A stretch of DNA of 53,830 bases from a virus (Duplodnaviria > Caudoviricetes): positions 1 to 53,830 of IMG/VR virus record IMGVR_UViG_3300029265_000685. One strand, written 5' to 3'. Positions 8,899-46,808 of this stretch are shown here, in pieces. The position numbers and the translations under genes were made by a program. The notes below the pieces were generated by a model. The model saw only the letters and a program-made list of their open reading frames with translations, was not told where the DNA came from and made no database searches. Position 1 is the stretch's first letter, and every line of letters starts with the position of its first letter.

Positions 8899-8916
8899 TT
8901 TAAGGTTCGTATATTT
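8887..8916 (+). promoter_or_regulatory. Promoter TTGG-N15-TTCGTATATTT
   Basis: Copy 1 of 13; resembles the Bacteroidota -33 TTTG / -7 TAnnTTTG promoter. Confidence 0.8.
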
Positions 8917-8935
8917 ACCCTAAATAATAAAAGTT

Positions 8936-10643: not shown

Positions 10644-10644
10644 T

Positions 10645-10673
10645 TTGGCTATCCAAACAATCGTTCGTATATT
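10645..10673 (+). promoter_or_regulatory. Promoter TTGG-N15-TTCGTATATT
   Basis: Repeated motif upstream of SSB; GTTTGG-CTAT-CCAAAC inverted repeat over the upstream box. Confidence 0.8.
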
Positions 10674-10704
10674 ATCGTTATAAATAAAAATAAATAGTTA
10701 TATT

Positions 10705-16271: not shown

Positions 16272-16280
16272 ATAAATAAA

Positions 16281-18005
16281 ATGAATAAAATGGATAATAA
16301 TAGTTTAGTAGCAGATTATACTAACTGGAAACGTGGGACTGATTACCCTGAATTTTTTGATAATGTAGCGCTATCAACAATTTCTAAAGGTTATTTATTA
16401 CCTGGAGAAACACCCCGTAAAGCATATAGAAGAGTAGCAAATTCAGTAGCCGACAGATTAAATCGTCCGGATCTTGCATCTAAATTCTTCAAATATATCT
16501 GGAATGGTTGGATTGGTTTAGCTTCCCCAGTACTTAGTAATACTGGTACTGATAGAGGTTTACCAATCAGTTGCTTTGGGATAGATACACCAGACTCCGT
16601 AAGGGGTATTGGTCTTACTAATGCTGAATTAATGCGCCTTACATCTTATGGTGGAGGTGTTGGAATTTCACTTAGTAGAATTAGAGGTAGAGGAGAAGAA
16701 ATTACTGGGAATGGTCAAAGTGAAGGGATTGTCCCTTGGGCTAAGATATATGATTCAACAATTATTGCAACTAACCAAGGTTCAGTACGTAGAGGAGCAG
16801 CATCCGTAAATTTAGATATCAACCATACAGACATTAAAGAATTTTTACAAATCCGTAGACCTAAGGGTGATGCTAACAGGCAATGTTTAAATCTACACCA
16901 GTGTGTTGTTGTAGATGATGCGTTTATGAAGCGATTAAATGATAGGGACAGCGAAGCCATGTCATTATGGTTAGAAATACTTAAATCACGGGTAGAAACG
17001 GGAGAACCATACATAATGTTTAAGGATAACGTTAACAAAGATAACCCATTAGCATATAGGATGAACAATTTAGATGTTAGTATGACTAATATTTGTTCTG
17101 AGATTACCTTACATACAGATGAAGAACATTCATTTATATGTTGTTTAAGTTCTTTAAATTTAGCTAAATATGACGAATGGAAAAATACAGATGTAGTTGA
17201 AGTAGCAACTTATTTCTTAGATGGTGTTATGGAGGAATTCATATCAAAAACAAACGGGAAAGATTCAATGGTACGTTCTTATAGATCAGCTAAAAAAGGT
17301 AGAGCATTAGGTTTAGGTGTGATGGGATGGCATACGTTTCTACAACAAAAGGGTTTACCATTTAACTCATTAGCATCGACAGCTTGGACACATACAATTT
17401 TTAGTGATATAAGACAGAAAGCAGAAGCAGCTTCACGTCAACTAGCAGTAGAATATGGTGAACCTCTTTGGTGTAAGGGTACAGGGATGAGAAATACCCA
17501 CGTAATGGCAGTTGCACCAACAGTTTCAAACTCACGCATTAATAATTGTTCTGCTGGGATAGAACCACAACCTGCAAATGTGTATGTATTTAATGGAGCT
17601 AAAGGAACATTCATAGTTAAAAATCCAGAATTAGAGAAATTATTGGAGCAAAAAGGAAAAAATGAGGCAAAATATTGGGATCAAATTTTAATAGATAATG
17701 GCTCAGTAGCAAACCTCCCAACTAATATCCTAACTGAAGAGGAGAAGGAAATATTTTTAACATTTCCCGAAATAAATCAATTAGGTTTAGTCCAACAAGC
17801 CGCAATTAGACAAAAATATATAGATCAAACCCAATCTTTAAATGTTGCTTTTGATCCAACAGATTCACCAAAATGGATAAATCAAGTACACATGGAGGCT
17901 CATAAATTAGGAATTAAAACCCTATACTATCTAAGAACCGATAGTGTAATTAAAGGTGATTTAGGAACTAGAACAGATGAAAGCTGTTTAAGTTGTGATG
18001 GATAG
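16281..18005 (+). CDS. nrdA: Ribonucleotide reductase class I alpha subunit (no ATP cone)
   Basis: ISCF, GGGVG, TNICSEI, APT, TLYY and C-terminal CLSCDG. Confidence 0.95.
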   Translation: MNKMDNNSLVADYTNWKRGTDYPEFFDNVALSTISKGYLLPGETPRKAYRRVANSVADRLNRPDLASKFFKYIWNGWIGLASPVLSNTGTDRGLPISCFGIDTPDSVRGIGLTNAELMRLTSYGGGVGISLSRIRGRGEEITGNGQSEGIVPWAKIYDSTIIATNQGSVRRGAASVNLDINHTDIKEFLQIRRPKGDANRQCLNLHQCVVVDDAFMKRLNDRDSEAMSLWLEILKSRVETGEPYIMFKDNVNKDNPLAYRMNNLDVSMTNICSEITLHTDEEHSFICCLSSLNLAKYDEWKNTDVVEVATYFLDGVMEEFISKTNGKDSMVRSYRSAKKGRALGLGVMGWHTFLQQKGLPFNSLASTAWTHTIFSDIRQKAEAASRQLAVEYGEPLWCKGTGMRNTHVMAVAPTVSNSRINNCSAGIEPQPANVYVFNGAKGTFIVKNPELEKLLEQKGKNEAKYWDQILIDNGSVANLPTNILTEEEKEIFLTFPEINQLGLVQQAAIRQKYIDQTQSLNVAFDPTDSPKWINQVHMEAHKLGIKTLYYLRTDSVIKGDLGTRTDESCLSCDG

Positions 18006-21718: not shown

Positions 21719-22197
21719 AGAAAAAAGTAATTTATTTTCATGGTCTTGAAAGTAATCAAGGTGGAGAGAAAGTAGAATATTTAGCCAATAGGTGCTATAT
21801 TCACGCTCCAAGTATGGATTATACGAGAGAGGATATATTTCCATTCCTCACCCAAATGGTAGAAGATTTCCAACCCGACTTAATCATTGGTTCTAGTATG
21901 GGTGGTTACACAGCTTATATATTAGGCGCCCTTTACAACATACCAATAATTGCATTCAATCCAGCACTACATAGCAGACCTTTCAACCCAAATTATCCAA
22001 AATTTGTAAATAAACATATAGCCAATAATGCTAGGATAATTTTAGGTGAAGAAGATACTATTATAAAACCATCATCAACCTTAGAATGGTTAAAAGATCA
22101 TATAGTGGATACTCATCCCAAAATAACAATTGAAAAAGTTAATGAGATGGGGCATAGAGTACCACTTGACATATTCATAAATAAAATACAAATGTAA
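21715..22197 (+). CDS. YqiA/YcfP-like alpha/beta hydrolase (esterase)
   Basis: YFHGLES oxyanion loop, GSSMGG nucleophile elbow, NPAL, GEED, MGH. Confidence 0.85.
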   Translation: MKKKVIYFHGLESNQGGEKVEYLANRCYIHAPSMDYTREDIFPFLTQMVEDFQPDLIIGSSMGGYTAYILGALYNIPIIAFNPALHSRPFNPNYPKFVNKHIANNARIILGEEDTIIKPSSTLEWLKDHIVDTHPKITIEKVNEMGHRVPLDIFINKIQM

Positions 22198-22215
22198 AAA
22201 TACCTACAGTAAAAT

Positions 22216-22245
22216 TAGGTTCCCCAATATATTGTTCGTATATTT
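22216..22245 (+). promoter_or_regulatory. Promoter TAGG-N15-TTCGTATATTT heading the 7-deazaguanine region
   Basis: Repeated motif, followed by a GGC-GCGA-GCC hairpin and AAAAATTAAGGTTATG. Confidence 0.8.
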
Positions 22246-22286
22246 ACAGGGTAAATAAGGCGCGAGCCCCATAAAAAATTAAGGTT

Positions 22287-22550
22287 ATGTTAAAAGAATT
22301 AAAGGATAAAATCCACCAATTACAAGAATCAGAAAATTTTAATTTCACCTACCAAGGTATAGGATATATTCTAAGTTGCTATGGTGTAGGTCCCACGGGG
22401 GAGAAATATGTTGCCGTACATAAAACGAACAAATGGGGCAGATCAATGAATATTGATAAAATTACAGATAATTATATTATACTATATGATTTTAATATGA
22501 TGGATGTAAAATCAACTTATAAAATGAGTATTAAAAAAATAATATTATGA
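22287..22550 (+). CDS. Hypothetical protein
   Basis: 87 aa ORF with ATGA overlap to the next gene. Confidence 0.6.
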   Translation: MLKELKDKIHQLQESENFNFTYQGIGYILSCYGVGPTGEKYVAVHKTNKWGRSMNIDKITDNYIILYDFNMMDVKSTYKMSIKKIIL

Positions 22551-23344
22551 TAAAATATTCACATGAAGTACCTTTATGTTTACTAGAAGATAGTAGAAAA
22601 TTTAATACTTATGACTACTGCTTACCCCATCTATTAGATGAGAATCAGGATTATTTAGAATTTTTTAGAAAATCAAAGAAAGATGGACGTTATATCATAA
22701 TGGATAATTCACTCCATGAATTAGGTAAAGCCTATGATTCTTATCGTTTATTACATTGGATCAACGAATTAAAACCAAATGAATTCATCATCCCTGATGT
22801 TTGGGAAGATATGGAAGGTTCAATTAAAAATGCTAAAACTTGGTTGAATTATAAACTACCCGAAGGTGTTGAAAAAGTAGTAGTTGTTCAAGCAACAACA
22901 CTCCATGAAGCATTTGAGTGTACTAAAATATATAAAGAGTTAGGTTACAAAAAAATCTGTTATTCTTATGGTGCCTCATATTACAATGACATAATCCCAC
23001 ACCCCAATAAAGATTTAGGTAAGGCATTAGGTCGCTTATTTGTAATTTCAATATTATATAATCAAGGTGTATTAACTGAAAATGATAGAATTCATTTGTT
23101 AGGTTGTGCAGTTCCTCAAGAATTTGGATGGTATGAAGATATTAAATGTATTGAATCTATAGATACTTCAAACCCCGTAATGGCTACTTTAGAAAATGTT
23201 AAATATACAGATGCAGGTTTAACTAAAAAACCAAAAGCAAATATGAATGATCACTTTGACATGATGTATGATGAGGTAGATTACGATTTATTAGATTACA
23301 ACTTAGAAAAATTTAAAACAATTAATAATTTAAAAACCAAATAG
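22547..23344 (+). CDS. Divergent TGT-fold protein, candidate DNA 7-deazaguanine transglycosylase (DpdA-like)
   Basis: Ordered motifs IIMDNS, IIPDV, VVQ, IHLLG, SIDTS match the TGT/DpdA barrel pattern; upstream of queCDE/folE. Confidence 0.6.
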   Translation: MIKYSHEVPLCLLEDSRKFNTYDYCLPHLLDENQDYLEFFRKSKKDGRYIIMDNSLHELGKAYDSYRLLHWINELKPNEFIIPDVWEDMEGSIKNAKTWLNYKLPEGVEKVVVVQATTLHEAFECTKIYKELGYKKICYSYGASYYNDIIPHPNKDLGKALGRLFVISILYNQGVLTENDRIHLLGCAVPQEFGWYEDIKCIESIDTSNPVMATLENVKYTDAGLTKKPKANMNDHFDMMYDEVDYDLLDYNLEKFKTINNLKTK

Positions 23345-23346
23345 TT

Positions 23347-23544
23347 ATGATTTCACTTTACGATTACACAGGAGAAAAAGATTGTGATGGGAGAGGATTA
23401 AGAGTTAATGCTTATGCAATACTTAAAAACCAACCATTTAAACAAAGATATTTAGAATTTGCGAATAGAGAAGTATTTTTATATACTAAAGAATTATTGG
23501 ATGAATACTTTGAAGTAGAAAAAATATTTAAAGTAAAGAAATAA
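23347..23544 (+). CDS. Hypothetical protein
   Basis: 65 aa ORF in the operon. Confidence 0.55.
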   Translation: MISLYDYTGEKDCDGRGLRVNAYAILKNQPFKQRYLEFANREVFLYTKELLDEYFEVEKIFKVKK

Positions 23545-23568
23545 CTAAATCAACAAAATAAAATACTA

Positions 23569-23784
23569 ATGGCTTTAAAAAAACAAACAATACGAGGTTT
23601 AGAAAAAATAACACTGAATGGTGATTCTACTACTAAAGAAGAATTAATTACTCTGAGTGAAAGCTGGAGTGAAAATGAAGAGTTAGTAGTAAGAAAAATC
23701 CTCCAACAAGGTGGAAAGTGTAAAATTGGGAAGGATGTTATAGCTGTAGTCCGCCCTGATGAAGTATACAGTTTAGTAAGATAA
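23569..23784 (+). CDS. Hypothetical protein
   Basis: 71 aa ORF in the operon. Confidence 0.6.
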   Translation: MALKKQTIRGLEKITLNGDSTTKEELITLSESWSENEELVVRKILQQGGKCKIGKDVIAVVRPDEVYSLVR

Positions 23785-23785
23785 C

Positions 23786-23817
23786 AGGATTAGCCTATAT
23801 CCTTAAACATACCAGGC
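23786..23817 (+). ncRNA. Candidate cis-regulatory H-type pseudoknot in the queC leader
   Basis: AGGAT(23786-90)/ATCCT(23799-803) stem; loop GCCT(23793-96) complementary to AGGC(23814-17); A-rich 10-nt linker. Confidence 0.45.
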
Positions 23818-23836
23818 ACATTAAAATTAAAATACA

Positions 23837-24685
23837 ATGCAGATGAAATTAGATTTCGAACAAGAAAAACACGTAGTAGTATCACTCTCAGGTGGTATGG
23901 ATAGCTCAACATTATTACTTAGATGTTTAAAAGAATATGACACAGTAACTGCAATATCTTTTGATTATGGTCAAAAACATAGAGTTGAGTTAGAAAGAGC
24001 TCAATCGTTAATTGATTATCTAGAAGAAAATGGACATAAAGTAAACTATAAACAAATTAAATTAGATGGTTTATCAAGCTTATTGGACTCAGCGTTAGTT
24101 GAAGGTGGTAAAGAAGTTCCTGAAGGACATTATGCGGATGATAATATGAAAGCTACAGTTGTCCCTAATAGAAATAAAATATTTGCTTCAATTGTCCAAG
24201 CGGTAGCTTTATCCGTTGCTAATAAATCAGGAGAAACTTGTAATATCGCTTTAGGTATCCATGCTGGAGATCATCAAATTTATAAAGATTGTAGGCAAGA
24301 ATTTCGTGATGCTGACGATGCTGCTTTTAGAGAAGGTAACTGGGATGCTGAACGTGTGGGTTATTTTACTCCTTATCTTCTTGGGGATAAATATGATATT
24401 CTCCAAGATGGGGTAGCGCTATGCGAATACTTATGTATAGCATTTGACGACGTATATGCTCGTACTATCACATCATACAAACCTATATTTAATAAAGAAA
24501 CATTCGAATGGTATGCAGATTACAAATCAGCATCAAGTGTTGAACGTATTGAAGCATTTATAAAACTGGGTAGACCTGATCCTTCACAATACGCAGATGA
24601 GTCAGGTACTGTAAGTTGGGAAGTAGCGGTAGACCATGTAACTAAAGTATTAGTATTAAAAGCAGTAGTAGAACAATTAAAATAA
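23837..24685 (+). CDS. queC: 7-cyano-7-deazaguanine (preQ0) synthase
   Basis: SLSGGMDS PP-loop, FDYGQKH, VPNRN, GIHAGD..YKDCR. Confidence 0.93.
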   Translation: MQMKLDFEQEKHVVVSLSGGMDSSTLLLRCLKEYDTVTAISFDYGQKHRVELERAQSLIDYLEENGHKVNYKQIKLDGLSSLLDSALVEGGKEVPEGHYADDNMKATVVPNRNKIFASIVQAVALSVANKSGETCNIALGIHAGDHQIYKDCRQEFRDADDAAFREGNWDAERVGYFTPYLLGDKYDILQDGVALCEYLCIAFDDVYARTITSYKPIFNKETFEWYADYKSASSVERIEAFIKLGRPDPSQYADESGTVSWEVAVDHVTKVLVLKAVVEQLK

Positions 24686-24690
24686 AATAA

Positions 24691-24951
24691 ATGAGTGATC
24701 GAGAAATAATGGATGGTAAAAAATATGAGATGGGTAATATTGAAAATTCACCATTTAAAAAAACAAGACGTTCTAAGAAAAAGAAAAAACAACAACTCCC
24801 AGATGCTAGAAAACATCAAATTGTAGGTTTTGTAAAATCTATAGTAAGGATTGCCGGATATATCCTTATTCCTTTTAATTTGGAGTCTGCGGTAATTCTT
24901 CTTATATTGAGCGAAATAGTAGTTAGAATTTTTCTTCCAGAATTAGTATAA
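24691..24951 (+). CDS. Small membrane protein
   Basis: Basic N-half and two hydrophobic segments in the C-half. Confidence 0.55.
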   Translation: MSDREIMDGKKYEMGNIENSPFKKTRRSKKKKKQQLPDARKHQIVGFVKSIVRIAGYILIPFNLESAVILLILSEIVVRIFLPELV

Positions 24952-24970
24952 ATTATAAAATAAATAAAAT

Positions 24971-25222
24971 ATGAATAAATTAATTTACATATCGAGTACA
25001 TGGTGTCAACCCTGTAAAACATTCTCACCCATAATGGATAAAGTATCATCCTCAGGTATTCCAGTACAAAAATTAGACGCTGATAAAGATCAGAATGCTT
25101 TAATGCAGTATGGTGTGAGGAGTATCCCAACAGTAGTTAAAGTAGATGCAAATGGGAATATGGTCGATAAATTTACAGGAGTAAAACAATTTCAAGAAAT
25201 AATTAATTTTTATAATAATTAA
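24971..25222 (+). CDS. Thioredoxin
   Basis: WCQPC active site; GVRSIPT cis-Pro loop. Confidence 0.9.
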   Translation: MNKLIYISSTWCQPCKTFSPIMDKVSSSGIPVQKLDADKDQNALMQYGVRSIPTVVKVDANGNMVDKFTGVKQFQEIINFYNN

Positions 25223-25223
25223 A

Positions 25224-25688
25224 ATGGGAAAATTTCAATCGAGTAAAGTATTTGACGGATTCTCAACAGTATTTCGTCAGTGGAAAGCAGAAGATACTCA
25301 TTGTAGGTTTCTACATGGTTATGGTATATCTTTTAAAGTATATTTTGAAGGTGAATTAGATGATAGAAATTGGGTTTGGGATTTTGGAGGCATGAAAAGA
25401 GCTAAGACATTAATTGATGGTAAACAACCTAAAGAGTGGATGGATTTTATGTTTGATCATACTCTCATTGTAGCTGAAGATGATCCTGGAATGGGTGGTT
25501 GGAATACGATGAATGATTTAGGTGTAATCCAACTAAGAATTATTGAAGCTACTGGTGCCGAAAAATTCGCTGAATTTATTTTTAACAAATTAAATCCATT
25601 CGTACTAGAAGAAACTGATGGTAGGGTTAGAGTTACTAAAGTTAAATTCATGGAACACGGAAAAAATGCTGCATATTACGGTGAATAA
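25224..25688 (+). CDS. queD: 6-carboxytetrahydropterin synthase
   Basis: HC..LHGY, WVWDFG, FDH, GAE motifs; located between queC and queE. Confidence 0.88.
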   Translation: MGKFQSSKVFDGFSTVFRQWKAEDTHCRFLHGYGISFKVYFEGELDDRNWVWDFGGMKRAKTLIDGKQPKEWMDFMFDHTLIVAEDDPGMGGWNTMNDLGVIQLRIIEATGAEKFAEFIFNKLNPFVLEETDGRVRVTKVKFMEHGKNAAYYGE

Positions 25689-25708
25689 CCACTTAAAAAA
25701 TTATAAAA

Positions 25709-26491
25709 ATGGAAAAGTTAAAAAGGGTAGAAGATTACGATAAAACTTTACCCATTGTAGAGATTTATACAGCTGTACAATCAGAGGGAAGCCGAGCTGG
25801 TTATCCAACAGTGGTAATTAGAACTACAGGGTGTACCCACAGGTGTCATTTTGGTGAAGGAGGTTGGTGTGATTCCTTTTATACCTCAATTCACCCCGAA
25901 AAAGGCACATTTAGTTTTAATGACATAATTGAAGCATATAAGAAAAATCCTCATATAAAAGAGATGATGTTAACTGGAGGTTCTCCAACTATGCATCCAG
26001 CTTTAGTAAATGAATTAACACATTTTGCTCATGAAAACGATATTTTCATTACTATTGAAACTGAAGGCTCGCATTTTCTACGCACTGATTATCCGATTAA
26101 TTTATTATCGATTTCTCCTAAATTCTCGAATTCAATCCCTGCTGTTGGGGTAAAAACACCCCAAGGTGGAATCACTGATGAGAGAATGATAAATAAACAT
26201 AATAAGCTTAGGCTTAATTATGGAGCAATAAAACGATCTATTGAATATCACTTAGACTACCACATAAAACCAGTATGGGATGGTAAAGATGAGGGTGCAT
26301 TAGCTGAGATTATAGAATGTATTTCTATATTAGACGTTCCTCAAGATAAAGTATGGTTTATGCCCGCTGGGGATTCAAGAGAATCATTATTTAAATCATA
26401 CCCTCTAGTATTTGATTGGGTTAGAGATAATGGTTATAGAATGACTTGGCGCCCACATATTATAGCCTTTGAAGACGCGAGAGAGGTATGA
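25709..26491 (+). CDS. queE: 7-carboxy-7-deazaguanine synthase (radical SAM)
   Basis: EIYTAVQSEG, IRTTGC..RC...WCD, LTGG, IETEG, SISPK. Confidence 0.92.
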   Translation: MEKLKRVEDYDKTLPIVEIYTAVQSEGSRAGYPTVVIRTTGCTHRCHFGEGGWCDSFYTSIHPEKGTFSFNDIIEAYKKNPHIKEMMLTGGSPTMHPALVNELTHFAHENDIFITIETEGSHFLRTDYPINLLSISPKFSNSIPAVGVKTPQGGITDERMINKHNKLRLNYGAIKRSIEYHLDYHIKPVWDGKDEGALAEIIECISILDVPQDKVWFMPAGDSRESLFKSYPLVFDWVRDNGYRMTWRPHIIAFEDAREV

Positions 26492-26516
26492 TAACGTTTA
26501 AAGAAAATAAATAATT

Positions 26517-26693
26517 ATGGAAAACGTAGCAAAAGAAATAGTTGCAGGTATTAATAAAACAACTAATGATTATGATGCCGCCGAAGAAGTAGATAGGATA
26601 TTAAAGAAATATTTAGTTAAGAGAAAATCCCAAAAATATGAAAGAACTAATAAATCAGAAATCAATAGAAATTCAAACCAAGATAATAGCTAA
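26517..26693 (+). CDS. 58-aa hypothetical protein (not in ORF track)
   Basis: Hand translation MENVAKEIVAGINKTTNDYDAAEEVDRILKKYL...; fills the queE-PRTase gap and overlaps the PRTase start. Confidence 0.45.
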   Translation: MENVAKEIVAGINKTTNDYDAAEEVDRILKKYLVKRKSQKYERTNKSEINRNSNQDNS

Positions 26694-27141
26694 TCAAATT
26701 ACAGCGAAACATAAGGATGATAAAACATCTATTGTTATGGTTGGTTTACTTAATGGTTGTTTTGCGTTTTACAGCGATTTAGTTCGAGCTATGCCAATTG
26801 ATGTGGAATGTGATTTTATGCGCGTTAAATCGTATATAAATCGCAAACAAGGTGATATAAAAATCACTAAAGACTTAGAGACACCTATCAAAGGTAAGCA
26901 TGTTTACATCGTAGATGATATCTACGATACAGGTAATACAATGAAAGCCGTAATTGAATATTTAGAAGTTAAAAACCCATCATCAATATCGATAGCAACT
27001 TTAATTACAAGAGAAACTAGTCCTATTCCTACCCAACCCTTATTTAATGCTTTTACTATTAAAGATGAATGGGTGATCGGATTTGGAATGAATAATGATA
27101 AAGGATATTGCAGAAATTTACCTTCAATTTGGGCTCTGTAA
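26638..27141 (+). CDS. hpt: Purine phosphoribosyltransferase (HGPRT family)
   Basis: GLLNG, VKSY, PRPP-binding motif VYIVDDIYDTGNT, VIGFGM, RNLP. Confidence 0.88.
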   Translation: MKELINQKSIEIQTKIIANQITAKHKDDKTSIVMVGLLNGCFAFYSDLVRAMPIDVECDFMRVKSYINRKQGDIKITKDLETPIKGKHVYIVDDIYDTGNTMKAVIEYLEVKNPSSISIATLITRETSPIPTQPLFNAFTIKDEWVIGFGMNNDKGYCRNLPSIWAL

Positions 27142-27157
27142 ATAATGTTCGTATATT
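27129..27157 (+). promoter_or_regulatory. Promoter TTGG-N15-TTCGTATATT
   Basis: Repeated motif upstream of folE. Confidence 0.8.
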
Positions 27158-27181
27158 ATAGTATAAATAAAAAAGTTATAA

Positions 27182-27877
27182 ATGGAAAATAAACGTAGAA
27201 AAATCCACGAGGAGTTAGAAGTGGTGCAAACAGGTTTTGCTAATGGGGTTGCTGAGGGTTTTCCTCTAAGTGATGATGCAAAACAAGAAATGATTAATGA
27301 AGCAACTATCGCTTATGGTAAATTTTTAGATGCACTAAAGTGTGATTGGAGGAATGATCCAAATTCTATGGAAACACCAAAAAGAGTTTCAAAAGCTTAT
27401 GTAAATGATTTATGGTCAGGTAGATATACAGCAATGTCTCCAATAACTTCATTCCCATCTGATGGTTATGATGGTATTATTATTGAACGTAATATACCTT
27501 TAACTAGTATGTGTAGTCACCACCACCAAACAATTAGTGGTGTAGTTCATATTGGATACATTGCCGGAGAAGAAGGTCAAGTAATTGGTTTATCTAAATT
27601 GAATAGGATTGTAGAATTATTTGGTAGAAGAGGAGCAATACAAGAACAATTAACATCAGCTATCCATGGAGCTACAGATAAAATTACTGAAGATAATTTA
27701 GGTGTAATTGTAACAATTGTAGCAGGTCATTCATGTGTAAGTTGTAGAGGTGTTAAACATTCGGGTGCTTCAATGGTTACAACAAAAGCCTCAGGAGTAT
27801 TTAGAGAAAATGGTAATAATGCTCGTAAGGAGTTTTTTGACAGTTTAAAAATTAATAACGGAGGACATCAAATATAA
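27182..27877 (+). CDS. folE: GTP cyclohydrolase I
   Basis: ETPKRV, SMCSHH, IGLSKLNRIV, QEQLT, HSCVSCRGV. Confidence 0.95.
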   Translation: MENKRRKIHEELEVVQTGFANGVAEGFPLSDDAKQEMINEATIAYGKFLDALKCDWRNDPNSMETPKRVSKAYVNDLWSGRYTAMSPITSFPSDGYDGIIIERNIPLTSMCSHHHQTISGVVHIGYIAGEEGQVIGLSKLNRIVELFGRRGAIQEQLTSAIHGATDKITEDNLGVIVTIVAGHSCVSCRGVKHSGASMVTTKASGVFRENGNNARKEFFDSLKINNGGHQI

Positions 27878-27891
27878 AATAAATAATAGTT

Positions 27892-28407
27892 ATGGAGAAA
27901 AATAAAAGTAATGTACAATTTATTGATGAAGTTGAGGAGTTTAATGCTACTATGGGTAAGCCAAATAACTACTCTCCTACAATTCCCGAAAAAAAAGAAT
28001 GGCAATTTGTTTATGATTTTGTTCTCGAAGAACTCGAAGAGTATAAAGCAGCCTGTGAGGCAGGTGATATTGTTGAGGTTCTTGATGCTTTATGTGACAT
28101 TGCCTACGTTTCATTTGGTAACGGCTCTATGTTACATGGTCTTAAGGATAAAATACGGCCAGCATATCAAGAAGTACAAGCGTCGAATATGTCAAAGGCT
28201 TGTATTAACGAAGAAGATGCACAAGCGACCGTTGAAAGACGTTCCGCTGAGCAAAAGACACCATGTCACTATGAGAAGGTTGGAGAATATTTTATTGTCT
28301 ATAGAACGTCGGATCGTAAAGTGATGAAAAACATTAATTATTTTAGACCAGATTTGAAACAATTTTTTACTGAAGATGAGATAAAGAATGCATCTTTAAA
28401 AGATTAA
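27892..28407 (+). CDS. MazG-like (PRA-PH family) nucleoside triphosphate pyrophosphohydrolase
   Basis: EELEEY...EVLDALCDIAYV...EVQASNMSK...KVMK...PDL. Confidence 0.85.
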   Translation: MEKNKSNVQFIDEVEEFNATMGKPNNYSPTIPEKKEWQFVYDFVLEELEEYKAACEAGDIVEVLDALCDIAYVSFGNGSMLHGLKDKIRPAYQEVQASNMSKACINEEDAQATVERRSAEQKTPCHYEKVGEYFIVYRTSDRKVMKNINYFRPDLKQFFTEDEIKNASLKD

Positions 28408-28425
28408 TATAAAAAAATAAAAGTT

Positions 28426-30108
28426 ATGAGTTTCAAGAAATGTTTTGCTAAAAGATTAGGGGGGAATGATTATCTCATACACCTATGGACTGATGAGGGT
28501 GGTTATGAGAAGGTAGAATGGACTAACCAAGCCTATACTGAATGTGGGGAAGCTGATGCTTCCCACCTTGGTTTGAATGGTGAACCTTTACGTAAAGTTA
28601 GAAATTGGAATAGAGAAGATCCAAAACTCCACTTCCATGATATGACCCCATATCAAAAATTCCTAGTTGAAAAATATGGAGTTAATGATGAACCATCTAC
28701 AACTCAAAGGGAAATATTTTTCGATATTGAGATTGAAATGGGGGGAGCTCTTACCGAAGAATATATAAAATCAGCACCTAAGAAGGTTACATCAATTGCT
28801 TGGTATGATAAACAAGTTGATTTGTGGGGCATCTTAATATTAGATGCTAAGGATAATTTAAAACATACAAAAACTAAAAATCGGGAAATAATCCCATGTC
28901 GTACTGAAGATGAACTATTAATGAAGTTTATTGAGAAGTTTAGAGAAATGGATCCTGACATAATTGTAGGATGGAATAGTGATTATTTTGATATTCCCTA
29001 TTTATATTATAGAATGTGTAATGTTTTAGGACAAGATATTGCCCGTTATTTATCCCCAATTGGTTATGTTAGAGAAACTCCTTGGTATAAGGATCAATTC
29101 ATACAAATAGCAGGTGTAGAATCACTTGATTATATGCGTTTACATAAGAAATTTAGTTGGGCGGATGAACCATCATTTAAGTTAGATGCTATTGGTGAAA
29201 AATATGCTGGGTTAAATAAAATTGAATACGATGGAAATTTAGATGATTTATTTGAAGAAGATCCATTAAAATTTATTCAATACAACTTTAGAGATGTTGA
29301 AATACTTAAAGTATTAGATGAAAAGTTAGAATATTTATCCCTAGTTAAAAATTTAGCACATAAAGGTAAACATAATTATAGTGAGGTTTATGCTAATACC
29401 AAAACACAAGATGGCGCTATTTCAGCTTATCTATTGAGTAAAGGTATTGTTCCACCTGCTAAAGAACGCAACCCATTATCTAAGAAAAACTATGCTGGTG
29501 GATATTTATTTTGCCCTAAAGCAGGTATTTACAATTATATGTTTGATGAAGATTTAACTTCACTATACCCTTCAATTATTATGACTATTAATATTGGTAA
29601 GGAAACAATGATTGGGAGAATAATTGATGCTGATGATAGAAATAATCGTTTAGGATTAAATGATTTAAAAAAGAGAGATCCTGAGGAAGAATTAATGGTT
29701 GAAAATGCCAAACGTAGACGTACTAAAGTACCAGTATCTAAACTGGTTAGGATGATTGAAGAAAATAAACTCTCAGTCTCGGCAAATGGTGTTTTATTTT
29801 CAACAGATAATGAATCAGTATTAAGTACTATTCTAAAAAAATGGTTTGATGAACGTGTTTTATATAAAAATAAAATGAAAGAAGCATATCAAGCTGGTAA
29901 TAATGAATTAGGTGCAAGTTTTCATATGAAACAATATACGATGAAAATTTTACTTAACAGTTTATATGGAGCTACAGCATTAGGTAGTTTTAGATATGGT
30001 AATGTAATACTATCAGAAGCAATTACATTGTCAGGTCAAAGAATCATTCAAGAATCAGCTTTAACAGCAAATAGACACATGAATAAAGTAATTCGCAAAC
30101 AAATATAA
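28426..30108 (+). CDS. Family B DNA polymerase, N-terminal subunit (exonuclease, motifs A and B)
   Basis: FDIE, GWNSDYFD, YNFRD, YAGG, DLTSLYPSII, KILLNSLYG. Confidence 0.92.
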   Translation: MSFKKCFAKRLGGNDYLIHLWTDEGGYEKVEWTNQAYTECGEADASHLGLNGEPLRKVRNWNREDPKLHFHDMTPYQKFLVEKYGVNDEPSTTQREIFFDIEIEMGGALTEEYIKSAPKKVTSIAWYDKQVDLWGILILDAKDNLKHTKTKNREIIPCRTEDELLMKFIEKFREMDPDIIVGWNSDYFDIPYLYYRMCNVLGQDIARYLSPIGYVRETPWYKDQFIQIAGVESLDYMRLHKKFSWADEPSFKLDAIGEKYAGLNKIEYDGNLDDLFEEDPLKFIQYNFRDVEILKVLDEKLEYLSLVKNLAHKGKHNYSEVYANTKTQDGAISAYLLSKGIVPPAKERNPLSKKNYAGGYLFCPKAGIYNYMFDEDLTSLYPSIIMTINIGKETMIGRIIDADDRNNRLGLNDLKKRDPEEELMVENAKRRRTKVPVSKLVRMIEENKLSVSANGVLFSTDNESVLSTILKKWFDERVLYKNKMKEAYQAGNNELGASFHMKQYTMKILLNSLYGATALGSFRYGNVILSEAITLSGQRIIQESALTANRHMNKVIRKQI

Positions 30109-30110
30109 CT

Positions 30111-31043
30111 ATGAAACATTTACAAGACGTACCATGGTGGATATGTGATCCCGAAGATATTAATTATGTAGCATACTCAGATACGGATTCTATCTATATC
30201 CATGCCGAACCATTACTTAAATTTCTATATCCTGACTTTGATGATATGCCTAGTGAGAAGAAAGATGATTTATTAGAAGAAGAAGCAATAAAATATCAAC
30301 ATATTATAACAGATTCATATAGTGATTTAGCTAGGGATTGTTTTAATGCTAAGGGAGAACATAGACTAGAAATGAAAACAGAATGTGTTATCAGATCAGC
30401 ATATTTTAGAGCTACTAGGCGTTATGCCCAATGGATTACTAAACAAGAAGGTATGACAAAGGAATCACTTGACGTTAAAGGACTAGAGTTTAAAAAAGCA
30501 AATTTCCCACCAGTGTTAGGTAAATTTTTTCATAAAATCCTCATTGATGTGTTAAAAGGCACAACACAACCAGAGATTGATGCTCGTGTCAAAGCATTTA
30601 GACAGCAAATATTAGACGGCACTATACCGCTAACTGAGTTAGGAAATCCCACATCAGTGAAAACATTAAATAAGTATACTGAACGTAAGGCACGTGCTGG
30701 GGAAATGATGACTACTGTTGCTAAAGGTGCACCAGCTGCTGTAAGAGCAGTTATTAGACATAATGATTTACTAAGATTTTGGGGGTTAAATGGTAAACAT
30801 AGTACTATTACTCAAGGTGATAAGGTTAAGTGGATTTATTTAAAATCAAACCCATATCACATTGATGCCGTTGCCTTTTTAGACTATGATATTGCAGATA
30901 AGGTTCGTACATTCATCGAAGAATATGCCGACCGTAGGAAAATTTTTGAATCAATATTACTTAATAAAGTCGAGGGGTTTTATGGAGATTTACAATGGTC
31001 ACTTAACCTCAACCCATATCGCGAAATGTTTTTTAACTTATAA
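30111..31043 (+). CDS. Family B DNA polymerase, C-terminal subunit (motif C, thumb)
   Basis: YSDTDSIY, RRYA, VKGLE; ends in a clamp-binding-like MFFNL. Confidence 0.9.
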   Translation: MKHLQDVPWWICDPEDINYVAYSDTDSIYIHAEPLLKFLYPDFDDMPSEKKDDLLEEEAIKYQHIITDSYSDLARDCFNAKGEHRLEMKTECVIRSAYFRATRRYAQWITKQEGMTKESLDVKGLEFKKANFPPVLGKFFHKILIDVLKGTTQPEIDARVKAFRQQILDGTIPLTELGNPTSVKTLNKYTERKARAGEMMTTVAKGAPAAVRAVIRHNDLLRFWGLNGKHSTITQGDKVKWIYLKSNPYHIDAVAFLDYDIADKVRTFIEEYADRRKIFESILLNKVEGFYGDLQWSLNLNPYREMFFNL

Positions 31044-31054
31044 TAAAAAAGAAA

Positions 31055-31789
31055 ATGATAAATAAACTACTCATCCAAAGCATAATTAATAAATATTATC
31101 TAGGATTAACCGAATCTGTTAAATGGTCAATTAATGACAAAAAATTAAATATTGATTTTATGACTCCTAATAAGGATGTTATAGGGAGTGTTTCATGTGA
31201 AAATTTTGATTTAGAAGATAGTAAATTAGCTATTTATGATACTAAAAAACTTCAAAGTTTAATTAGTATCTGTAGTGGAGATTTACTTCTAGAATTAACC
31301 AAGAATAACGCCTTAAATACGAAACTACGAATATCAGATTTAAATTTTAACCTAACATATGCTTTATCAGATCCATTGTTAATTGGTAAAGTTGGTACTG
31401 TAAATGATGCTGAGTGGGTTGTAGAATTAAATTTAGAAGATGATGATGTAACTAACTTGATTAAAGCAAAGAGTGCATTAGCCTTAGTAGATAATATGAT
31501 AGTAACTACTTCAACAAATCTGGATAATGAGGATGTTATTGAATTTGTATTTGGCGATGAATCAGGCCATAATAATAAGATTACATATCAAATGTCAGGA
31601 ATTATCAAAGAACAAAATATGAAACTTCCATTTAACTCCGATATGTTAAAAACTATACTACAAGCCAATAAAGATATGGAAGGTGGAAAATTATATTTAA
31701 GCTCAATGGGACTTATGAAATTAGAATTTTCACACGAAGGAATTAAAAGTGAGTACTTTATGGTGAGAAGAACCGAAACCAACTTTTAA
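31055..31789 (+). CDS. Sliding clamp (gp45-like)
   Basis: 244 aa two-domain alpha/beta pattern with AIYD motif; adjacent to PolB, with a clamp loader nearby. Confidence 0.7.
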   Translation: MINKLLIQSIINKYYLGLTESVKWSINDKKLNIDFMTPNKDVIGSVSCENFDLEDSKLAIYDTKKLQSLISICSGDLLLELTKNNALNTKLRISDLNFNLTYALSDPLLIGKVGTVNDAEWVVELNLEDDDVTNLIKAKSALALVDNMIVTTSTNLDNEDVIEFVFGDESGHNNKITYQMSGIIKEQNMKLPFNSDMLKTILQANKDMEGGKLYLSSMGLMKLEFSHEGIKSEYFMVRRTETNF

Positions 31790-36015: not shown

Positions 36016-36230
36016 GTCGATTAAGAGATATGCTTTACACATCAGCCATTGCTGATAAAGCAAAATCATTATTAACCTTAGAATTACTAGAAGTAAATCC
36101 AGCAGGTATAGGTGATCATTCCACAGATGATTTTTATAAAAACGCCGAAGAAGCACTTGCTATGTTAGCTGATGCTGATGAGAGGTTAGAAACAATAGAA
36201 AAATATTTAATTGTAAAAGAAGTTATATAA
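36012..36230 (+). CDS. Small helical hypothetical protein
   Basis: 72 aa with NPAGIGDHS motif. Confidence 0.6.
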   Translation: MSRLRDMLYTSAIADKAKSLLTLELLEVNPAGIGDHSTDDFYKNAEEALAMLADADERLETIEKYLIVKEVI

Positions 36231-36619
36231 TGTCAATAAAGGAAAGAAAAATATCTAACTCAACACCCAATGAAAAAGTTGGATCCCCAGTTAATGATTT
36301 CGAAAAAACATACCCTGAACTAGCTGAAGAATTTAGTAAAATTCAAGTAGAACAGTATGAGTTATTTGCTGGTAAAATGATGGATTATGGTTTAGGTAAT
36401 ATTGCTTTAGGATCTAATCTTACAGAAAAAGAAGATGTGCAACTCTCGTTAACAGGTATTTGGTTACGTTGTAATGACAAAATTAACCGCTTGAAAAATA
36501 TGCTAAAACGAGATGGTCACAGTTATGTTAATGATGAACCCATGATCGATAGTTTTATCGACATATCTAACTACGGCATTATAGCCCAGCTAGTTATGAG
36601 GGGTAAATGGAAAAAATAA
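36230..36619 (+). CDS. DUF1599 / nucleotide-modification-associated domain 1 protein
   Basis: K..DYG..N...R..DKINRL...E...DSFIDISNYGII signature. Confidence 0.75.
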   Translation: MSIKERKISNSTPNEKVGSPVNDFEKTYPELAEEFSKIQVEQYELFAGKMMDYGLGNIALGSNLTEKEDVQLSLTGIWLRCNDKINRLKNMLKRDGHSYVNDEPMIDSFIDISNYGIIAQLVMRGKWKK

Positions 36620-36624
36620 AAGTT

Positions 36625-42667: not shown

Positions 42668-42686
42668 AAAATAAAAAGAAAAAATT

Positions 42687-43310: not shown

Positions 43311-43311
43311 T

Positions 43312-46119: not shown

Positions 46120-46120
46120 T

Positions 46121-46807: not shown

Positions 46808-46808
46808 T

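What the first reader, a model, noticed from the sequence alone, without database searches (positions are those of the whole stretch)
22547..31043. 7-deazaguanine cluster with a purine PRTase and a MazG-like pyrophosphatase, abutting PolB
Seen: TGT/DpdA-like, queC, trx, queD, queE, PRTase, folE, NTP pyrophosphatase and split PolB in one run; no queF or Gat-QueC in the window. Established: FolE/QueD/QueE/QueC make preQ0 from GTP, and phage DpdA swaps it for G in DNA. In toyocamycin biosynthesis a PRTase (ToyH) is proposed to ribosylate preQ0. Phages with substituted bases often pair a dNTP pyrophosphatase with their polymerase. Inference, two models: (a) a recycling loop in which the PRTase salvages guanine excised by DpdA back towards GTP for FolE; (b) a pre-replicative route in which the PRTase makes preQ0 nucleotide, the pyrophosphatase edits the dGTP pool and PolB incorporates the analogue. 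I do not know either as a characterised phage pathway.
Basis: partly seen in the sequence, partly recalled or inferred. Interest (0 to 1): 0.82.

Follow-up and report, generated by a model that had tools for sequence, protein, structure and literature searches.

The report
Guanine-salvage enzyme inside phage deazaguanine cluster
This phage fragment carries a known type of gene set for replacing the G in its DNA with a 7-deazaguanine, and the purine phosphoribosyltransferase built into it most likely recycles the guanine that is cut out, while the neighbouring pyrophosphatase looks like an ordinary stand-in for dUTPase.

Summary
Every gene named is at the stated coordinates, and no QueF is in the window. 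The window is only about 33% of a roughly 160 kb phage. The transglycosylase is a DpdA3-type protein, 37-39% identical to those of Campylobacter phage CP220 and Flavobacterium phage immuto, with a TGT fold.

The phosphoribosyltransferase (PRTase) is tied to folE. Among clusters found without using it as bait, 31 of 32 (MazG-seeded) and 4 of 6 (DpdA3-seeded) have a PRTase directly beside folE. That PRTase belongs to one of two unrelated 6-oxopurine families, Hpt-like as here or Gpt-like. In Queuovirinae phages a Gpt-like domain is fused to FolE. This favours model (a), recycling of excised guanine towards GTP. CP220 and one complete relative have DpdA3 but no PRTase, so it is a helper, not a core step.

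The MazG-like gene is never found together with a dUTPase-superfamily gene. In relatives without it, such a gene sits in the same slot. It therefore most likely hydrolyses dUTP or dCTP and does not edit dGTP. Model (b), the pre-replicative route, is weakly supported.

The papers I could search never link a PRTase to DpdA. This scan has already reported the PRTase-FolE pairing on many other genomes.

The parts
22216..22244 (+). Promoter-like motif TWGG-N15-TTCGTATATT ahead of orf87/dpdA3
   Evidence: Exact match. The window has 16 matches against 1.86 expected by chance.
22287..22550 (+). Small ORF (87 aa) overlapping the dpdA3 start; function unknown
   Evidence: ORF list. No PHROG hit. No tblastn hit in relatives.
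22547..23344 (+). DpdA3-type TGT-fold transglycosylase, predicted to swap G in DNA for a 7-deazaguanine
   Evidence: D53, D84 and D206 are invariant in 27 relatives.
23569..23784 (+). Conserved small ORF (71 aa); function unknown
   Evidence: tblastn hit in 35 of 70 PRTase-seeded loci. No PHROG hit.
23837..24685 (+). QueC-like preQ0 synthase variant lacking the zinc cysteines
   Evidence: Pfam QueC 4.9e-35. TITSY stands where PDB 2pg3 has TLTCY. 72% identical to immuto QueC.
24691..24951 (+). Conserved small ORF (86 aa); function unknown
   Evidence: tblastn hit in 48 of 70 loci. No PHROG hit.
24971..25222 (+). Thioredoxin
   Evidence: Pfam PF00085 2.5e-12.
25224..25688 (+). QueD (6-carboxytetrahydropterin synthase)
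   Evidence: Pfam PTPS 2.8e-14.
25709..26491 (+). QueE (radical-SAM CDG synthase)
   Evidence: TIGR03365 5.9e-16, below its cut-off. Radical_SAM 4.6e-6.
26638..27141 (+). Hpt-like 6-oxopurine phosphoribosyltransferase, proposed to convert guanine to GMP
27129..27157 (+). Promoter-like motif ahead of folE, overlapping the PRTase 3' end
   Evidence: Exact match.
27182..27877 (+). FolE (GTP cyclohydrolase I)
   Evidence: Pfam 2e-40.
27892..28407 (+). MazG/PRA-PH-like all-alpha NTP pyrophosphohydrolase, proposed to act on dUTP or dCTP
28426..30108 (+). Family B DNA polymerase, N-terminal gene (exonuclease domain and palm motifs A and B)
   Evidence: Pfam. The split is kept in relatives.
30111..31043 (+). 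Family B DNA polymerase, C-terminal gene (starts just before YSDTDS)
   Evidence: Pfam divDNApol/DNA_pol_B, weak. A single 915-aa ORF in L010.

Best explanation
This is a DpdA3-type 7-deazaguanine DNA-modification cluster sitting inside the replication module of a large marine phage.

FolE, QueD, QueE and a zinc-less QueC variant make a 7-deazaguanine base from GTP. The base is most likely preQ0, because no QueF occurs here or in a complete relative. The TGT-fold DpdA3 protein then exchanges it for guanine in phage DNA.

The Hpt-like PRTase is an accessory salvage step. It takes up the free guanine that DpdA3 releases (guanine + PRPP gives GMP). That removes a competitor of the exchange reaction, and host kinases return the purine to GTP for FolE.

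The MazG-like enzyme belongs to the folE-polB transcription unit. It is most likely the phage's substitute for dUTPase, hydrolysing dUTP or dCTP, and has no role specific to deazaguanine.

Shown here: gene identities, folds, synteny and distribution. Inferred: all substrates and the direction of flux.
For: 1. Cluster type.
- The transglycosylase is 37-39% identical to the immuto and CP220 proteins. Cui et al. 2023 name that family DpdA3 (sections read).
- It has a TGT fold.

2. The PRTase is locked to folE.
- All 70 viral loci found with the PRTase carry que genes. QueE lies upstream in 64 of 70, and the other 6 loci begin at the PRTase.
- Among loci found with other baits and with enough flank, 31 of 32 MazG-seeded and 4 of 6 DpdA3-seeded distinct loci have a PRTase.
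- Its start lies usually about 450-570 bp before the folE start. In 15 of those 35 loci it lies 1.2-2.9 kb upstream. In a few it lies 0.7-1.4 kb after the folE start.

3. Two unrelated families fill that place.
- Hpt-like: TIGR01203, 116-149 bits.
- Gpt-like short form, 130-147 aa: best NCBIfam match NF006613, and it passes PF00156.
- Guanine is the substrate these two families share (recalled knowledge).

4. Fusion to FolE.
- In Vibrio phage VpKK5 and a Stenotrophomonas phage, the roughly 300-aa 'GTP cyclohydrolase' carries an N-terminal Gpt-like domain with an intact PRPP motif.
- Both lie next to a queuine tRNA-ribosyltransferase/DpdA gene.

5. The PRTase is dispensable.
- CP220 and the complete record G006 have DpdA3 but no PF00156 match.

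6. Predicted operons.
- Exact promoter-like motifs at 22216 and 27129 put the PRTase with dpdA3-queCDE, and MazG with folE-polB.

7. MazG-like gene against dUTPase.
- In 10 whole records, 6 have the MazG-like gene and no PF00692, 3 have PF00692 and no MazG-like gene, and 1 (phiST) has neither by these queries.
- 11 loci carry a dUTPase or dCTP-deaminase-like ORF inside the cluster, and 0 of those 11 has a MazG hit.
- In L010 the trimeric dUTPase lies exactly between folE and polB.
- The acidic motif E46 E47 E50 E62 D65 D69 is invariant.
- The closest solved protein is DR2231, solved with dUMP and dUMPNPP bound.

8. Identity of the base.
- QueC is 72% identical to that of immuto, a phage that also has QueF and carries fdPreQ1.
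- No QueF in the window or in G001.
Against: - No enzyme here has been assayed. Cui et al. report that their tests of DpdA3 in E. coli failed.
- The Hpt-like clade is old and far from cellular Hpt: about 35-39% identity, E 6e-30 to E. coli Hpt. It has Arg (sometimes Lys) where E. coli Hpt has the pocket Lys, and an invariant Trp for Phe. Changed specificity is therefore possible.
- A purine-type PRTase that uses 7-carboxy-7-deazaguanine exists: TubE, shown in vitro (PMC6112128).
- The loop needs GMP kinase, and none was found in 5 related records. It would rely on the host.
- Most loci come from one broad group of marine phages that share GroEL and gene order, so much of the synteny may be inherited. 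The counts are not independent events.
- The MazG-like protein is 76% identical between this phage and immuto, while DpdA3 is only 37%. That is unusually strong constraint for a house-cleaning enzyme.
- Its fold match to DR2231 is weak (E 3e-3, TM 0.3-0.4, model pLDDT 73).
Confidence: 0.5

Rival explanations
1. Pre-replicative route. The PRTase phosphoribosylates a 7-deazaguanine (CDG or preQ0). Host kinases and the phage ribonucleotide reductase carry it to the deoxy-triphosphate. A pyrophosphatase removes dGTP, and PolB builds the analogue into DNA. DpdA3 only mops up, or acts on nucleotides.
For: - TubE is a CDG-specific PRTase shown in vitro, and ToyH is proposed to act likewise.
- All three characterised DpdA3 phages have complete G replacement. 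Complete replacement is typical of pre-replicative systems (recalled).
- Hutinet 2019 mentions a modified-dGTP route 'as proposed for Campylobacter phages'.
- Cui 2023 notes ADG nucleoside in CP220-infected cells.
- The phage has class I RNR genes at 15285-18005.
- The PRTase follows queE, whose product is CDG.
- Pocket residues differ from E. coli Hpt.
Against: - CP220, reported as fully substituted, and G006 have no PRTase.
- Two different guanine-type PRTase families occupy the slot, and the partner gene is folE, not queC or queE.
- The same Gpt-like domain is fused to FolE in Queuovirinae-type phages, where the iggy paper describes DpdA as inserting preQ0 post-replication.
- The PRTase stays about 71% identical between lineages predicted to make different final bases.
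- The 'dGTP editor' is replaced by pyrimidine-specific dUTPase-fold enzymes in relatives.
- No HD-type dGTPase or extra nucleotide kinase turned up among the window ORFs scanned.
Confidence: 0.12
2. Generic purine salvage. The PRTase simply raises GMP and IMP supply from any free purines during infection, for example from degraded host nucleic acid. It sits near folE only because this is the nucleotide-metabolism and replication module, and has no specific tie to guanine excised by DpdA3.
For: - The score is almost that of a canonical Hpt (148.8 against 150).
- In phiST the Gpt-like PRTase lies next to a dNMP-kinase-like gene and RNR, about 20 genes from the que genes.
- PA5oct-like Pseudomonas phages (about 285 kb) carry a stand-alone gpt-like gene.
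- SNase-like nucleases share the interval in 26 loci.
Against: - The position is immediately beside folE in nearly all clusters.
- The domain is fused in frame with FolE.
- Every one of the 64 PRTase-seeded loci with upstream cover has queE.
- In the curated phage collection, close Hpt-like relatives are essentially absent outside this group.
Confidence: 0.15
3. The MazG-like enzyme is purine-directed, like MazZ of Z-genome phages. It would hydrolyse (d)GTP or stray 7-deaza-(d)GTP, either to limit G in DNA or to clean up toxic analogue nucleotides made by promiscuous PRTases.
For: - Tight synteny folE-mazG-polB: of 41 MazG-seeded loci with upstream cover, 40 have queE and 38 have folE.
- 76% identity to the immuto protein, and a conserved C-terminal extension not seen in DR2231.
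- phiST also has a MazG/dUTPase-like gene beside DpdL and the polymerase.
Against: - Mutual exclusion and same-slot replacement by trimeric dUTPase or DCD-like genes.
- Wider MazG relatives occur in 222 phage records. The organism tally is dominated by Flavobacterium, Microbacterium and Polaribacter phages, and the features listed under the matches name no que genes. The rest of those genomes was not checked.
- DpdA3 phages without it exist (CP220, G005, G006).
Confidence: 0.15
4. The PRTase fold serves as a purine or PRPP sensor that regulates FolE or the operon, as PyrR does, rather than as a catalyst.
For: - Physical fusion to FolE in other phages.
- Weak PyrR matches.
- The Gpt-like short forms are much reduced in size (130-147 aa).
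Against: - The PRPP motif and catalytic residues (D93, D94, D97, TGNT, S65-Y66) are invariant in 167 unique sequences.
- The Hpt-like form is full length.
Confidence: 0.05

Closest known systems
[quoted passage not shown]
   Same: - DpdA3-like transglycosylase at 37-39% identity.
- FolE, QueD and QueE.
- QueC 72% and MazG-like 76% identical to the immuto proteins.
- GroES/GroEL downstream.
- A PRTase between queE and folE in immuto, and a PRTase elsewhere in phiST.
   Different: - No QueF or DpdN here or in the complete relative G001, so the predicted base is preQ0 rather than fdPreQ1, dDG or dADG.
- Split PolB instead of PolA.
- An Hpt-like PRTase where immuto has a Gpt-like one (31% identity over 61 aa).
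- The paper's main text never mentions a phosphoribosyltransferase (0 occurrences). Its supplements could not be opened.
E. coli hypoxanthine phosphoribosyltransferase Hpt (PDB 5knr, 1g9s) / TIGR01203
   Same: - Full-length alignment at E 6e-30.
- PRPP motif, catalytic Asp (D97), Ser-Tyr loop and the C-terminal Arg are all kept.
   Different: - 148.8 bits against a cut-off of 150.
- Arg125 stands for the pocket Lys, Trp145 for Phe and Asn39 for Arg in LLRG, all conserved across the phage clade.
- Asn152 for Asp occurs only in 10 of 167 sequences, this one among them.
- The gene is embedded in a DNA-modification operon.
PRTase-FolE fusion proteins of Queuovirinae-type phages (e.g. Vibrio phage VpKK5 gp32, Stenotrophomonas phage vB_SM_ytsc_ply2008005c gp47)
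   Same: A 6-oxopurine-type PRTase is joined to the GTP-consuming first enzyme of the pathway, next to a DpdA gene.
   Different: There the PRTase is a reduced Gpt-like domain fused in frame. Here it is a separate, full-length Hpt-like gene ending 40 bp before folE, with a promoter-like motif between them.
TubE / ToyH deazapurine PRTases of tubercidin and toyocamycin biosynthesis (PMC6112128)
   Same: A purine-type PRTase encoded beside FolE, QueD and QueE homologues.
   Different: - Those clusters, as described in the papers read, have no nucleic-acid insertion enzyme. They carry GMP-reductase-like, decarboxylase and phosphatase tailoring genes.
- This cluster has DpdA3 and a polymerase.
- The sequence relationship to TubE could not be tested, because no TubE sequence was available to the tools.
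DR2231 of Deinococcus radiodurans (MazG-like NTP pyrophosphohydrolase, solved with dUMP and dUMPNPP) and the all-alpha NTP-PPase superfamily (HisE, MazG)
   Same: Pfam PRA-PH passes its cut-off, the acidic metal-binding motif is kept, and DR2231 is the best sequence and fold match in the PDB.
   Different: The similarity is only weak (E 0.22 by sequence, 3e-3 by fold). The protein has a conserved C-terminal extension of about 70 aa, and its substrate is unknown.

Membership tests
DpdA3 subfamily of TGT/DpdA transglycosylases | Sequence relationship to the named members (CP220 gp056, the immuto DpdA) | tested here: met
   tblastn gives 37-39% identity over 97-98% of the protein, E 7e-36 to 3e-48. 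phrog_19058 at 1e-41.
DpdA3 subfamily of TGT/DpdA transglycosylases | TGT-like TIM-barrel fold | tested here: met
   Model pLDDT 93.8. The top 50 Foldseek PDB hits are all TGT, ArcTGT or DpdA (7ui4), best E 6e-7.
DpdA3 subfamily of TGT/DpdA transglycosylases | Catalytic aspartates of the TGT mechanism | tested here: inconclusive
   D53, D84 and D206 (SIDTSNP) are invariant in 27 relatives. Their equivalence to the TGT catalytic Asp residues rests on recall and was not checked by superposition.
DpdA3 subfamily of TGT/DpdA transglycosylases | Encoded with FolE, QueD and QueE | tested here: met
DpdA3 subfamily of TGT/DpdA transglycosylases | Complete replacement of G in virion DNA by base exchange | not testable with these tools
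   This needs LC-MS of virion DNA and an enzyme assay. Cui 2023 also could not show DpdA3 activity.
Hypoxanthine(-guanine) PRTase, TIGR01203 | Score over the curated cut-off | tested here: not met
   148.8 bits against a cut-off of 150, and 148.4. It misses by about 1 bit.
Hypoxanthine(-guanine) PRTase, TIGR01203 | PRPP-binding motif, catalytic Asp and Ser-Tyr loop | tested here: met
   VYIVDDIYDTGNT and KSY align to E. coli Hpt and are invariant in 167 unique sequences.
Hypoxanthine(-guanine) PRTase, TIGR01203 | Pocket Lys that reads the 6-oxo group, and the stacking Phe | tested here: not met
   Arg125 (Lys in a few divergent members) and an invariant Trp145 stand in their place. The roles of these residues are recalled, not tested.
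Hypoxanthine(-guanine) PRTase, TIGR01203 | Activity on guanine or hypoxanthine with PRPP | not testable with these tools
   Needs an enzyme assay.
TubE/ToyH-type deazapurine PRTase | Uses CDG or preQ0 as the base | not testable with these tools
   Needs an enzyme assay. No TubE sequence was at hand for comparison.
TubE/ToyH-type deazapurine PRTase | Cluster without a nucleic-acid insertion enzyme, with nucleotide-tailoring genes (GMP-reductase-like, Nudix or HAD phosphatase) | tested here: not met
   DpdA3 is present. None of the window ORFs scanned matched such families. Not every small ORF was scanned.
MazG/HisE all-alpha NTP pyrophosphohydrolase superfamily | Profile match over the cut-off | tested here: met
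   PF01503 PRA-PH scores 39.3 bits against a cut-off of 21.3. phrog_671 at 1.7e-29.
MazG/HisE all-alpha NTP pyrophosphohydrolase superfamily | Acidic metal-binding motif (EExxE ... ExxD) | tested here: met
   E46, E47, E50, E62, D65 and D69 are invariant in 16 relatives. The form of the motif is recalled.
MazG/HisE all-alpha NTP pyrophosphohydrolase superfamily | Helical-bundle fold like the solved members | tested here: inconclusive
   The best hits are DR2231 chains at E 3e-3 with TM 0.29-0.38. The model's mean pLDDT is 73.
Canonical-dNTP exclusion enzyme of a pre-replicative base-replacement system (DatZ/MazZ type) | Conserved wherever the replacement system occurs, and specific for the replaced purine nucleotide | tested here: not met
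   It is absent from CP220, G005 and G006. In L009, L010 and L011 a dUTPase or DCD-like gene stands in its slot between folE and polB. In L074-077 and L086-089 such a gene lies just after the PRTase. Specificity itself was not tested.

The most novel reading that the evidence does not exclude
DpdA3 phages replace all G before replication. The cluster PRTase, or DpdA3 acting on nucleotides, turns a 7-deazaguanine into a nucleotide. Host kinases and the phage RNR make 7-deaza-dGTP, which the split PolB incorporates. The guanine-type PRTases beside FolE are then the committed step of a phage nucleotide pathway not yet described.
Probability: 0.1. Interest if true: 0.9.

Novelty: new variant of a known kind. 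Interest (0 to 1): 0.5.

Why it matters
Phages that swap every G for a 7-deazaguanine release one free guanine and use up one GTP for each base changed. A built-in guanine-to-GMP step would balance that account. It might also help drive the exchange to completion, and it could be one of the 'other unknown enzymes' that Cui et al. suspected when DpdA3 failed in E. coli.

The link recurs across phage groups as a neighbouring gene of two unrelated families, or as a fusion with FolE. It is absent from the main text of the pathway papers I could search. It gives a simple, testable addition to a known counter-defence pathway.

It also warns against reading every MazG-like gene next to a polymerase as a sign of a pre-replicative base-replacement system.

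Tried and rejected
- As its message advised, I went on with the search for related loci.
- **No close isolate.** Megablast of the region against the phage collection found nothing.
- **Riboswitch.** Rfam gave no match at E <= 1 in 22000-31500, so a preQ1-type riboswitch in the queC leader is not supported by known models.
- **DpdA3 against the PDB by sequence.** Only chance hits. The fold search was needed.
- **A dNMP kinase as constant partner of DpdA3.** Thymidylate-kinase genes beside DpdA3 in CP220 and immuto suggested this. I dropped it: no PF02223 match over its cut-off in 5 related records and no guanylate kinase either.
- **Asn152 (GFGMN) as a specificity marker.** Dropped: 157 of 167 clade members keep Asp at that position.
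- **Crippen et al. 2019** (J Virol; the CP220 base analysis) is not held. What I say of it comes from how Cui 2023 and Hutinet 2019 cite it.
- **Supplements are closed.** Supplementary Data S1 of Cui 2023 may list neighbouring genes, including the PRTase, and I could not see it.
- **Not done.**
  - A sequence comparison with TubE or ToyH: no sequence was available.
  - A structure model of the PRTase pocket: both fold jobs went to DpdA3 and the MazG-like protein.
  - A protein-complex job: I claim no binding.
  - The group L074-L077 and L089 was not followed up. These loci have PRTase, QueC and a DCD-like gene but no DpdA3 or FolE hit within 10 kb.
- **Rows dropped before the counts.** Loci without a FolE hit, loci with less than 2.5 kb upstream or 1.5 kb downstream of folE, and exact duplicates of the folE region.

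Full report
**What is there**

The window is a whole IMG/VR virus record of 53,830 bp. It is linear, with a CheckV completeness of 33%, so it is about a third of a phage of roughly 160 kb. G+C is 29-38% and all the genes dealt with here lie on the + strand.

| Coordinates | Gene | Evidence |
|---|---|---|
| 22547-23344 | TGT/DpdA-like | |
| 23837-24685 | QueC-like | |
| 24971-25222 | thioredoxin | |
| 25224-25688 | QueD | |
| 25709-26491 | QueE | |
| 26638-27141 | purine PRTase | |
| 27182-27877 | FolE | |
| 27892-28407 | MazG/PRA-PH-like pyrophosphohydrolase | |
| 28426-30108, 30111-31043 | PolB in two ORFs | |

No QueF matches the window.

Around the run lie the following:
- a gp32-like protein,
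- a RecA-like protein,
- a 5'-3' exonuclease,
- a DnaB-like helicase,
- both subunits of a class I ribonucleotide reductase,
- GroES and GroEL,
- a clamp loader.

The cluster therefore sits in a T4-like replication module.

**The transglycosylase**

- It has no Pfam, NCBIfam or PDB sequence match.
- It is 37-39% identical over its whole length to the annotated DpdA of Flavobacterium phage immuto and to CP220 gp056. Cui et al. 2023 named this family DpdA3 (sections read).
- A model built on 27 relatives has pLDDT 93.8, and its 50 best Foldseek matches in the PDB are all TGT, archaeosine TGT or bacterial DpdA.
- Cui et al. report complete G replacement in CP220, phiST and immuto. They propose a post-replicative exchange, and state that their attempts to test DpdA3 in E. 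coli failed.

**Which base**

- The QueC-like protein lacks the zinc cysteines: TITSY stands where a solved QueC has TLTCY.
- It is 72% identical to immuto QueC. Immuto also has QueF and carries fdPreQ1, so this QueC type should make preQ0.
- The complete 164 kb relative G001 (DpdA3 72%, PolB 85% identical) has no QueF. Immuto-like records do.
- I therefore predict dPreQ0. This is inference only.

**The PRTase**

*Family and abundance*
- It scores 148.8 bits on TIGR01203 (cut-off 150) and aligns end to end with E. coli Hpt at E 6e-30.
- In the large protein collection, 994 clusters match at E <= 1e-10. Apart from the window's own entry, the best 120 listed are 75-83% identical and 167-168 aa long, from metagenomes.

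*Loci found with the PRTase as bait*
- In IMG/VR, 70 distinct loci encode a relative at 51-83% identity.
- tblastn with the window's proteins finds QueE upstream in 64 of the 70. The other six loci begin at the PRTase.
- FolE is found in 57, MazG in 49 and DpdA3 in 45 of the 70. The misses are mostly at contig ends.

*Loci found with other baits*

Because that set was seeded with the PRTase, I also took loci seeded with DpdA3 (18 loci) and with the MazG-like protein (476 matching stretches, best 80 kept). I searched their ORFs with HMMs of the two PRTase forms.

Only distinct loci with a FolE hit and at least 2.5 kb upstream and 1.5 kb downstream were counted:

| Seed | Distinct loci | With a PRTase | Hpt-like | Gpt-like | None |
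|---|---|---|---|---|---|
| MazG-like | 32 | 31 | 18 | 13 | L132 |
| DpdA3 | 6 | 4 | 2 | 2 | L009, L010 |

The PRTase starts usually about 450-570 bp before the folE start. In 15 of those 35 loci it lies 1.2-2.9 kb upstream. In a few it lies 0.7-1.4 kb after the folE start.

*The short form*
- It is 130-147 aa long and includes immuto gp211.
- It matches PF00156, and its best NCBIfam match is the Gpt model NF006613.
- It shares only 31% identity over 61 residues with the window's protein.
- Two unrelated 6-oxopurine PRTase families therefore occupy one slot.

*Reach beyond this phage group*
- Searching the short form against isolated phages finds phiST and its kin. There the PRTase lies beside a dNMP-kinase-like gene and RNR.
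- It also finds a set of Vibrio, Stenotrophomonas, Sphingomonas and Pseudomonas phages where the match falls under a gene annotated as GTP cyclohydrolase.
- In the two I opened, Vibrio phage VpKK5 and a Stenotrophomonas phage, it is the first 115 or so residues of a roughly 300-aa protein.
- That domain keeps the PRPP motif. FolE follows it from about residue 117, and a DpdA or queuine tRNA-ribosyltransferase gene lies next door.

*Where it is missing*

CP220 and the complete record G006 have no PF00156 match at all.

**How I read the PRTase**

- The constant partner is folE, the GTP-consuming entry step.
- The shared substrate of Hpt and Gpt enzymes is guanine (recalled).
- The exchange by DpdA frees one guanine per base replaced (established for TGT-type enzymes; recalled).
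- TGT enzymes also put guanine back. Guanine exchange is their standard assay (recalled). A guanine sink should therefore favour full replacement.
- The enzyme is dispensable in some DpdA3 phages, as a helper would be, since hosts have their own Hpt or Gpt.

The pocket differences flagged earlier are partly real:
- Arg125 for Lys and Trp145 for Phe are conserved through 167 unique sequences. Lys returns at position 125 in some divergent members.
- Asn152 for Asp is a minority state, in 10 of 167 sequences.

These changes are conservative and do not decide the substrate.

TubE shows that a purine-type PRTase can use CDG, so model (b) stays open at about 0.1.

**The MazG-like enzyme**

*Family*
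- It passes Pfam PRA-PH, and its acidic motif is invariant.
- Its nearest solved relative is DR2231, solved with dUMP and dUMPNPP bound. The match is weak.
- The close subfamily is tightly syntenic. Of 41 seeded loci with at least 4 kb upstream, 40 have QueE and 38 have FolE.
- The wider family is found in 222 phage records, mostly Flavobacterium, Microbacterium and Polaribacter phages. The features listed under those matches name no que genes. I did not check the rest of those genomes.

*The telling result is distribution* (whole-record searches)

| Records | MazG-like | Trimeric dUTPase (PF00692) |
|---|---|---|
| G001, G002, G003, G004, G007, immuto | yes | no |
| G005, G006, CP220 | no | yes |
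| phiST | no | no |

- For phiST, Cui et al. report a dimeric-dUTPase/MazG-like gene by HHpred.
- At locus level, 11 loci carry a dUTPase-superfamily ORF inside the cluster, and none of the 11 has a MazG hit.
- In L009 and L010 a trimeric dUTPase lies exactly between folE and an unsplit polB.
- In L011 a dCTP-deaminase-like gene lies in that same slot.
- In L074-L077 and L086-L089 such a gene follows the PRTase.

Enzymes of the dUTPase fold act on pyrimidine nucleotides (recalled). The simplest reading is that the MazG-like enzyme does the dUTPase or dCTPase job here. The independent events are few, perhaps three to five lineages, so I hold this at about 0.55.

**Operon structure**

Exact copies lie at 22216, 27129 and 31808. 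This predicts two transcription units:
- orf87, dpdA3, queC, trx, queD, queE and the PRTase;
- folE, mazG, polB-N, polB-C and orf244.

**Comparison with what is known**

- The cluster is a further member of the DpdA3 systems of Cui et al. 2023.
- 'Phosphoribosyl' occurs 0 times in the main text of Cui 2023, Hutinet 2019 and the iggy paper.
- A full-text search for 'DpdA' with 'phosphoribosyltransferase' gives one paper, on actinomycete gene clusters, where the word refers to tubercidin.
- Searches on 7-deazaguanine with phage, phosphoribosyltransferase, pre-replicative or dGTP found no description of this link.
- Supplements were closed.
- Within this scan the pairing is not new. 180 earlier findings in at least 163 genomes hold these words. 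They include followed-up reports of Gpt-like domains fused to FolE, and unchecked notes on the same hpt-folE-mazG-polB order. I reached the fusion on my own, before reading those notes, and my result agrees with them.

This report adds four points:
- the two-family displacement at one slot within one phage group;
- counts from loci not seeded with the PRTase;
- the DpdA3 phages that have no PRTase;
- the MazG-like against dUTPase exclusion.

**Verdict**

- This is a new variant of a known kind.
- Interest is moderate. It offers a clear, cheap biochemical test, but the enzymes are ordinary salvage and house-cleaning types, and the scan has met the pattern many times.

Noticed in passing
window 37824-47606: A 10-kb block of sugar genes on the + strand: two GT1 and two GT2 glycosyltransferases, an NAD-dependent epimerase/dehydratase, a DegT-type aminotransferase fragment, WbqC, a glycoside-hydrolase-like protein and a GNAT-methyltransferase fusion. 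The acceptor (DNA base, virion protein or host surface) is unknown.
   Followed up: partly
window 36230-36619: A 129-aa ORF with a weak match to PF07659/DUF1599, 'nucleotide modification associated domain 1' (24.9 bits against a cut-off of 25). It lies just before a PD-(D/E)XK nuclease at 36607-37575.
   Followed up: no
window 23837-24685: The QueC-like protein lacks the zinc-binding cysteines of solved QueC and has an extra C-terminal stretch of about 65 aa. It is 72% identical to immuto QueC, so this zinc-less form is probably a working preQ0 synthase.
   Followed up: partly
window 28426-31043; L010:17202-19949: PolB is split between motif B and the YSDTDS motif into two ORFs in different frames. 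The same spacing recurs in relatives at 77-89% identity, so the split is inherited and not an error. In L010 the gene is one 915-aa ORF. Some relatives have up to about 4 kb between the two parts (for example L038).
   Followed up: partly
window, 16 sites from 8887 to 53627: The promoter-like motif TWGG-N15-TTCGTATATT occurs on the + strand only, mostly at gene starts: 16 matches against 1.86 expected.
   Followed up: yes
L026:7861-9621, and likewise in L030 and L031: A 586-aa carbamoyltransferase (PF16861/PF02543) lies between queE and the PRTase in some relatives. It may mark a further tailoring of the base.
   Followed up: no
QueE-folE intervals of relatives, e.g. L045:9647-9997 and L169:163-555: SNase-like nuclease ORFs (26 loci) and 4HBT hotdog thioesterase ORFs (20 loci) recur between queE and the PRTase. 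Neither is present in the window itself.
   Followed up: partly
L074-L077 and L089 (around 7000-11100): A lineage with QueC, thioredoxin, QueD/E, the Hpt-like PRTase and a dCTP-deaminase-like gene, but with no DpdA3, FolE or MazG hit within 10 kb. Its transglycosylase and FolE may be elsewhere or of another type.
   Followed up: no
L171 (phiST) 6989-8033: In phiST the Gpt-like PRTase (CGPG_00045) lies beside a dNMP-kinase-like protein (PF21448, weak), an RNase H and RNR, about 20 genes from DpdA3 and DpdL.
   Followed up: partly
   Followed up: no
window 50710-53598: Two tandem DUF285 (PF03382) repeat proteins of 521 and 426 aa.
   Followed up: no
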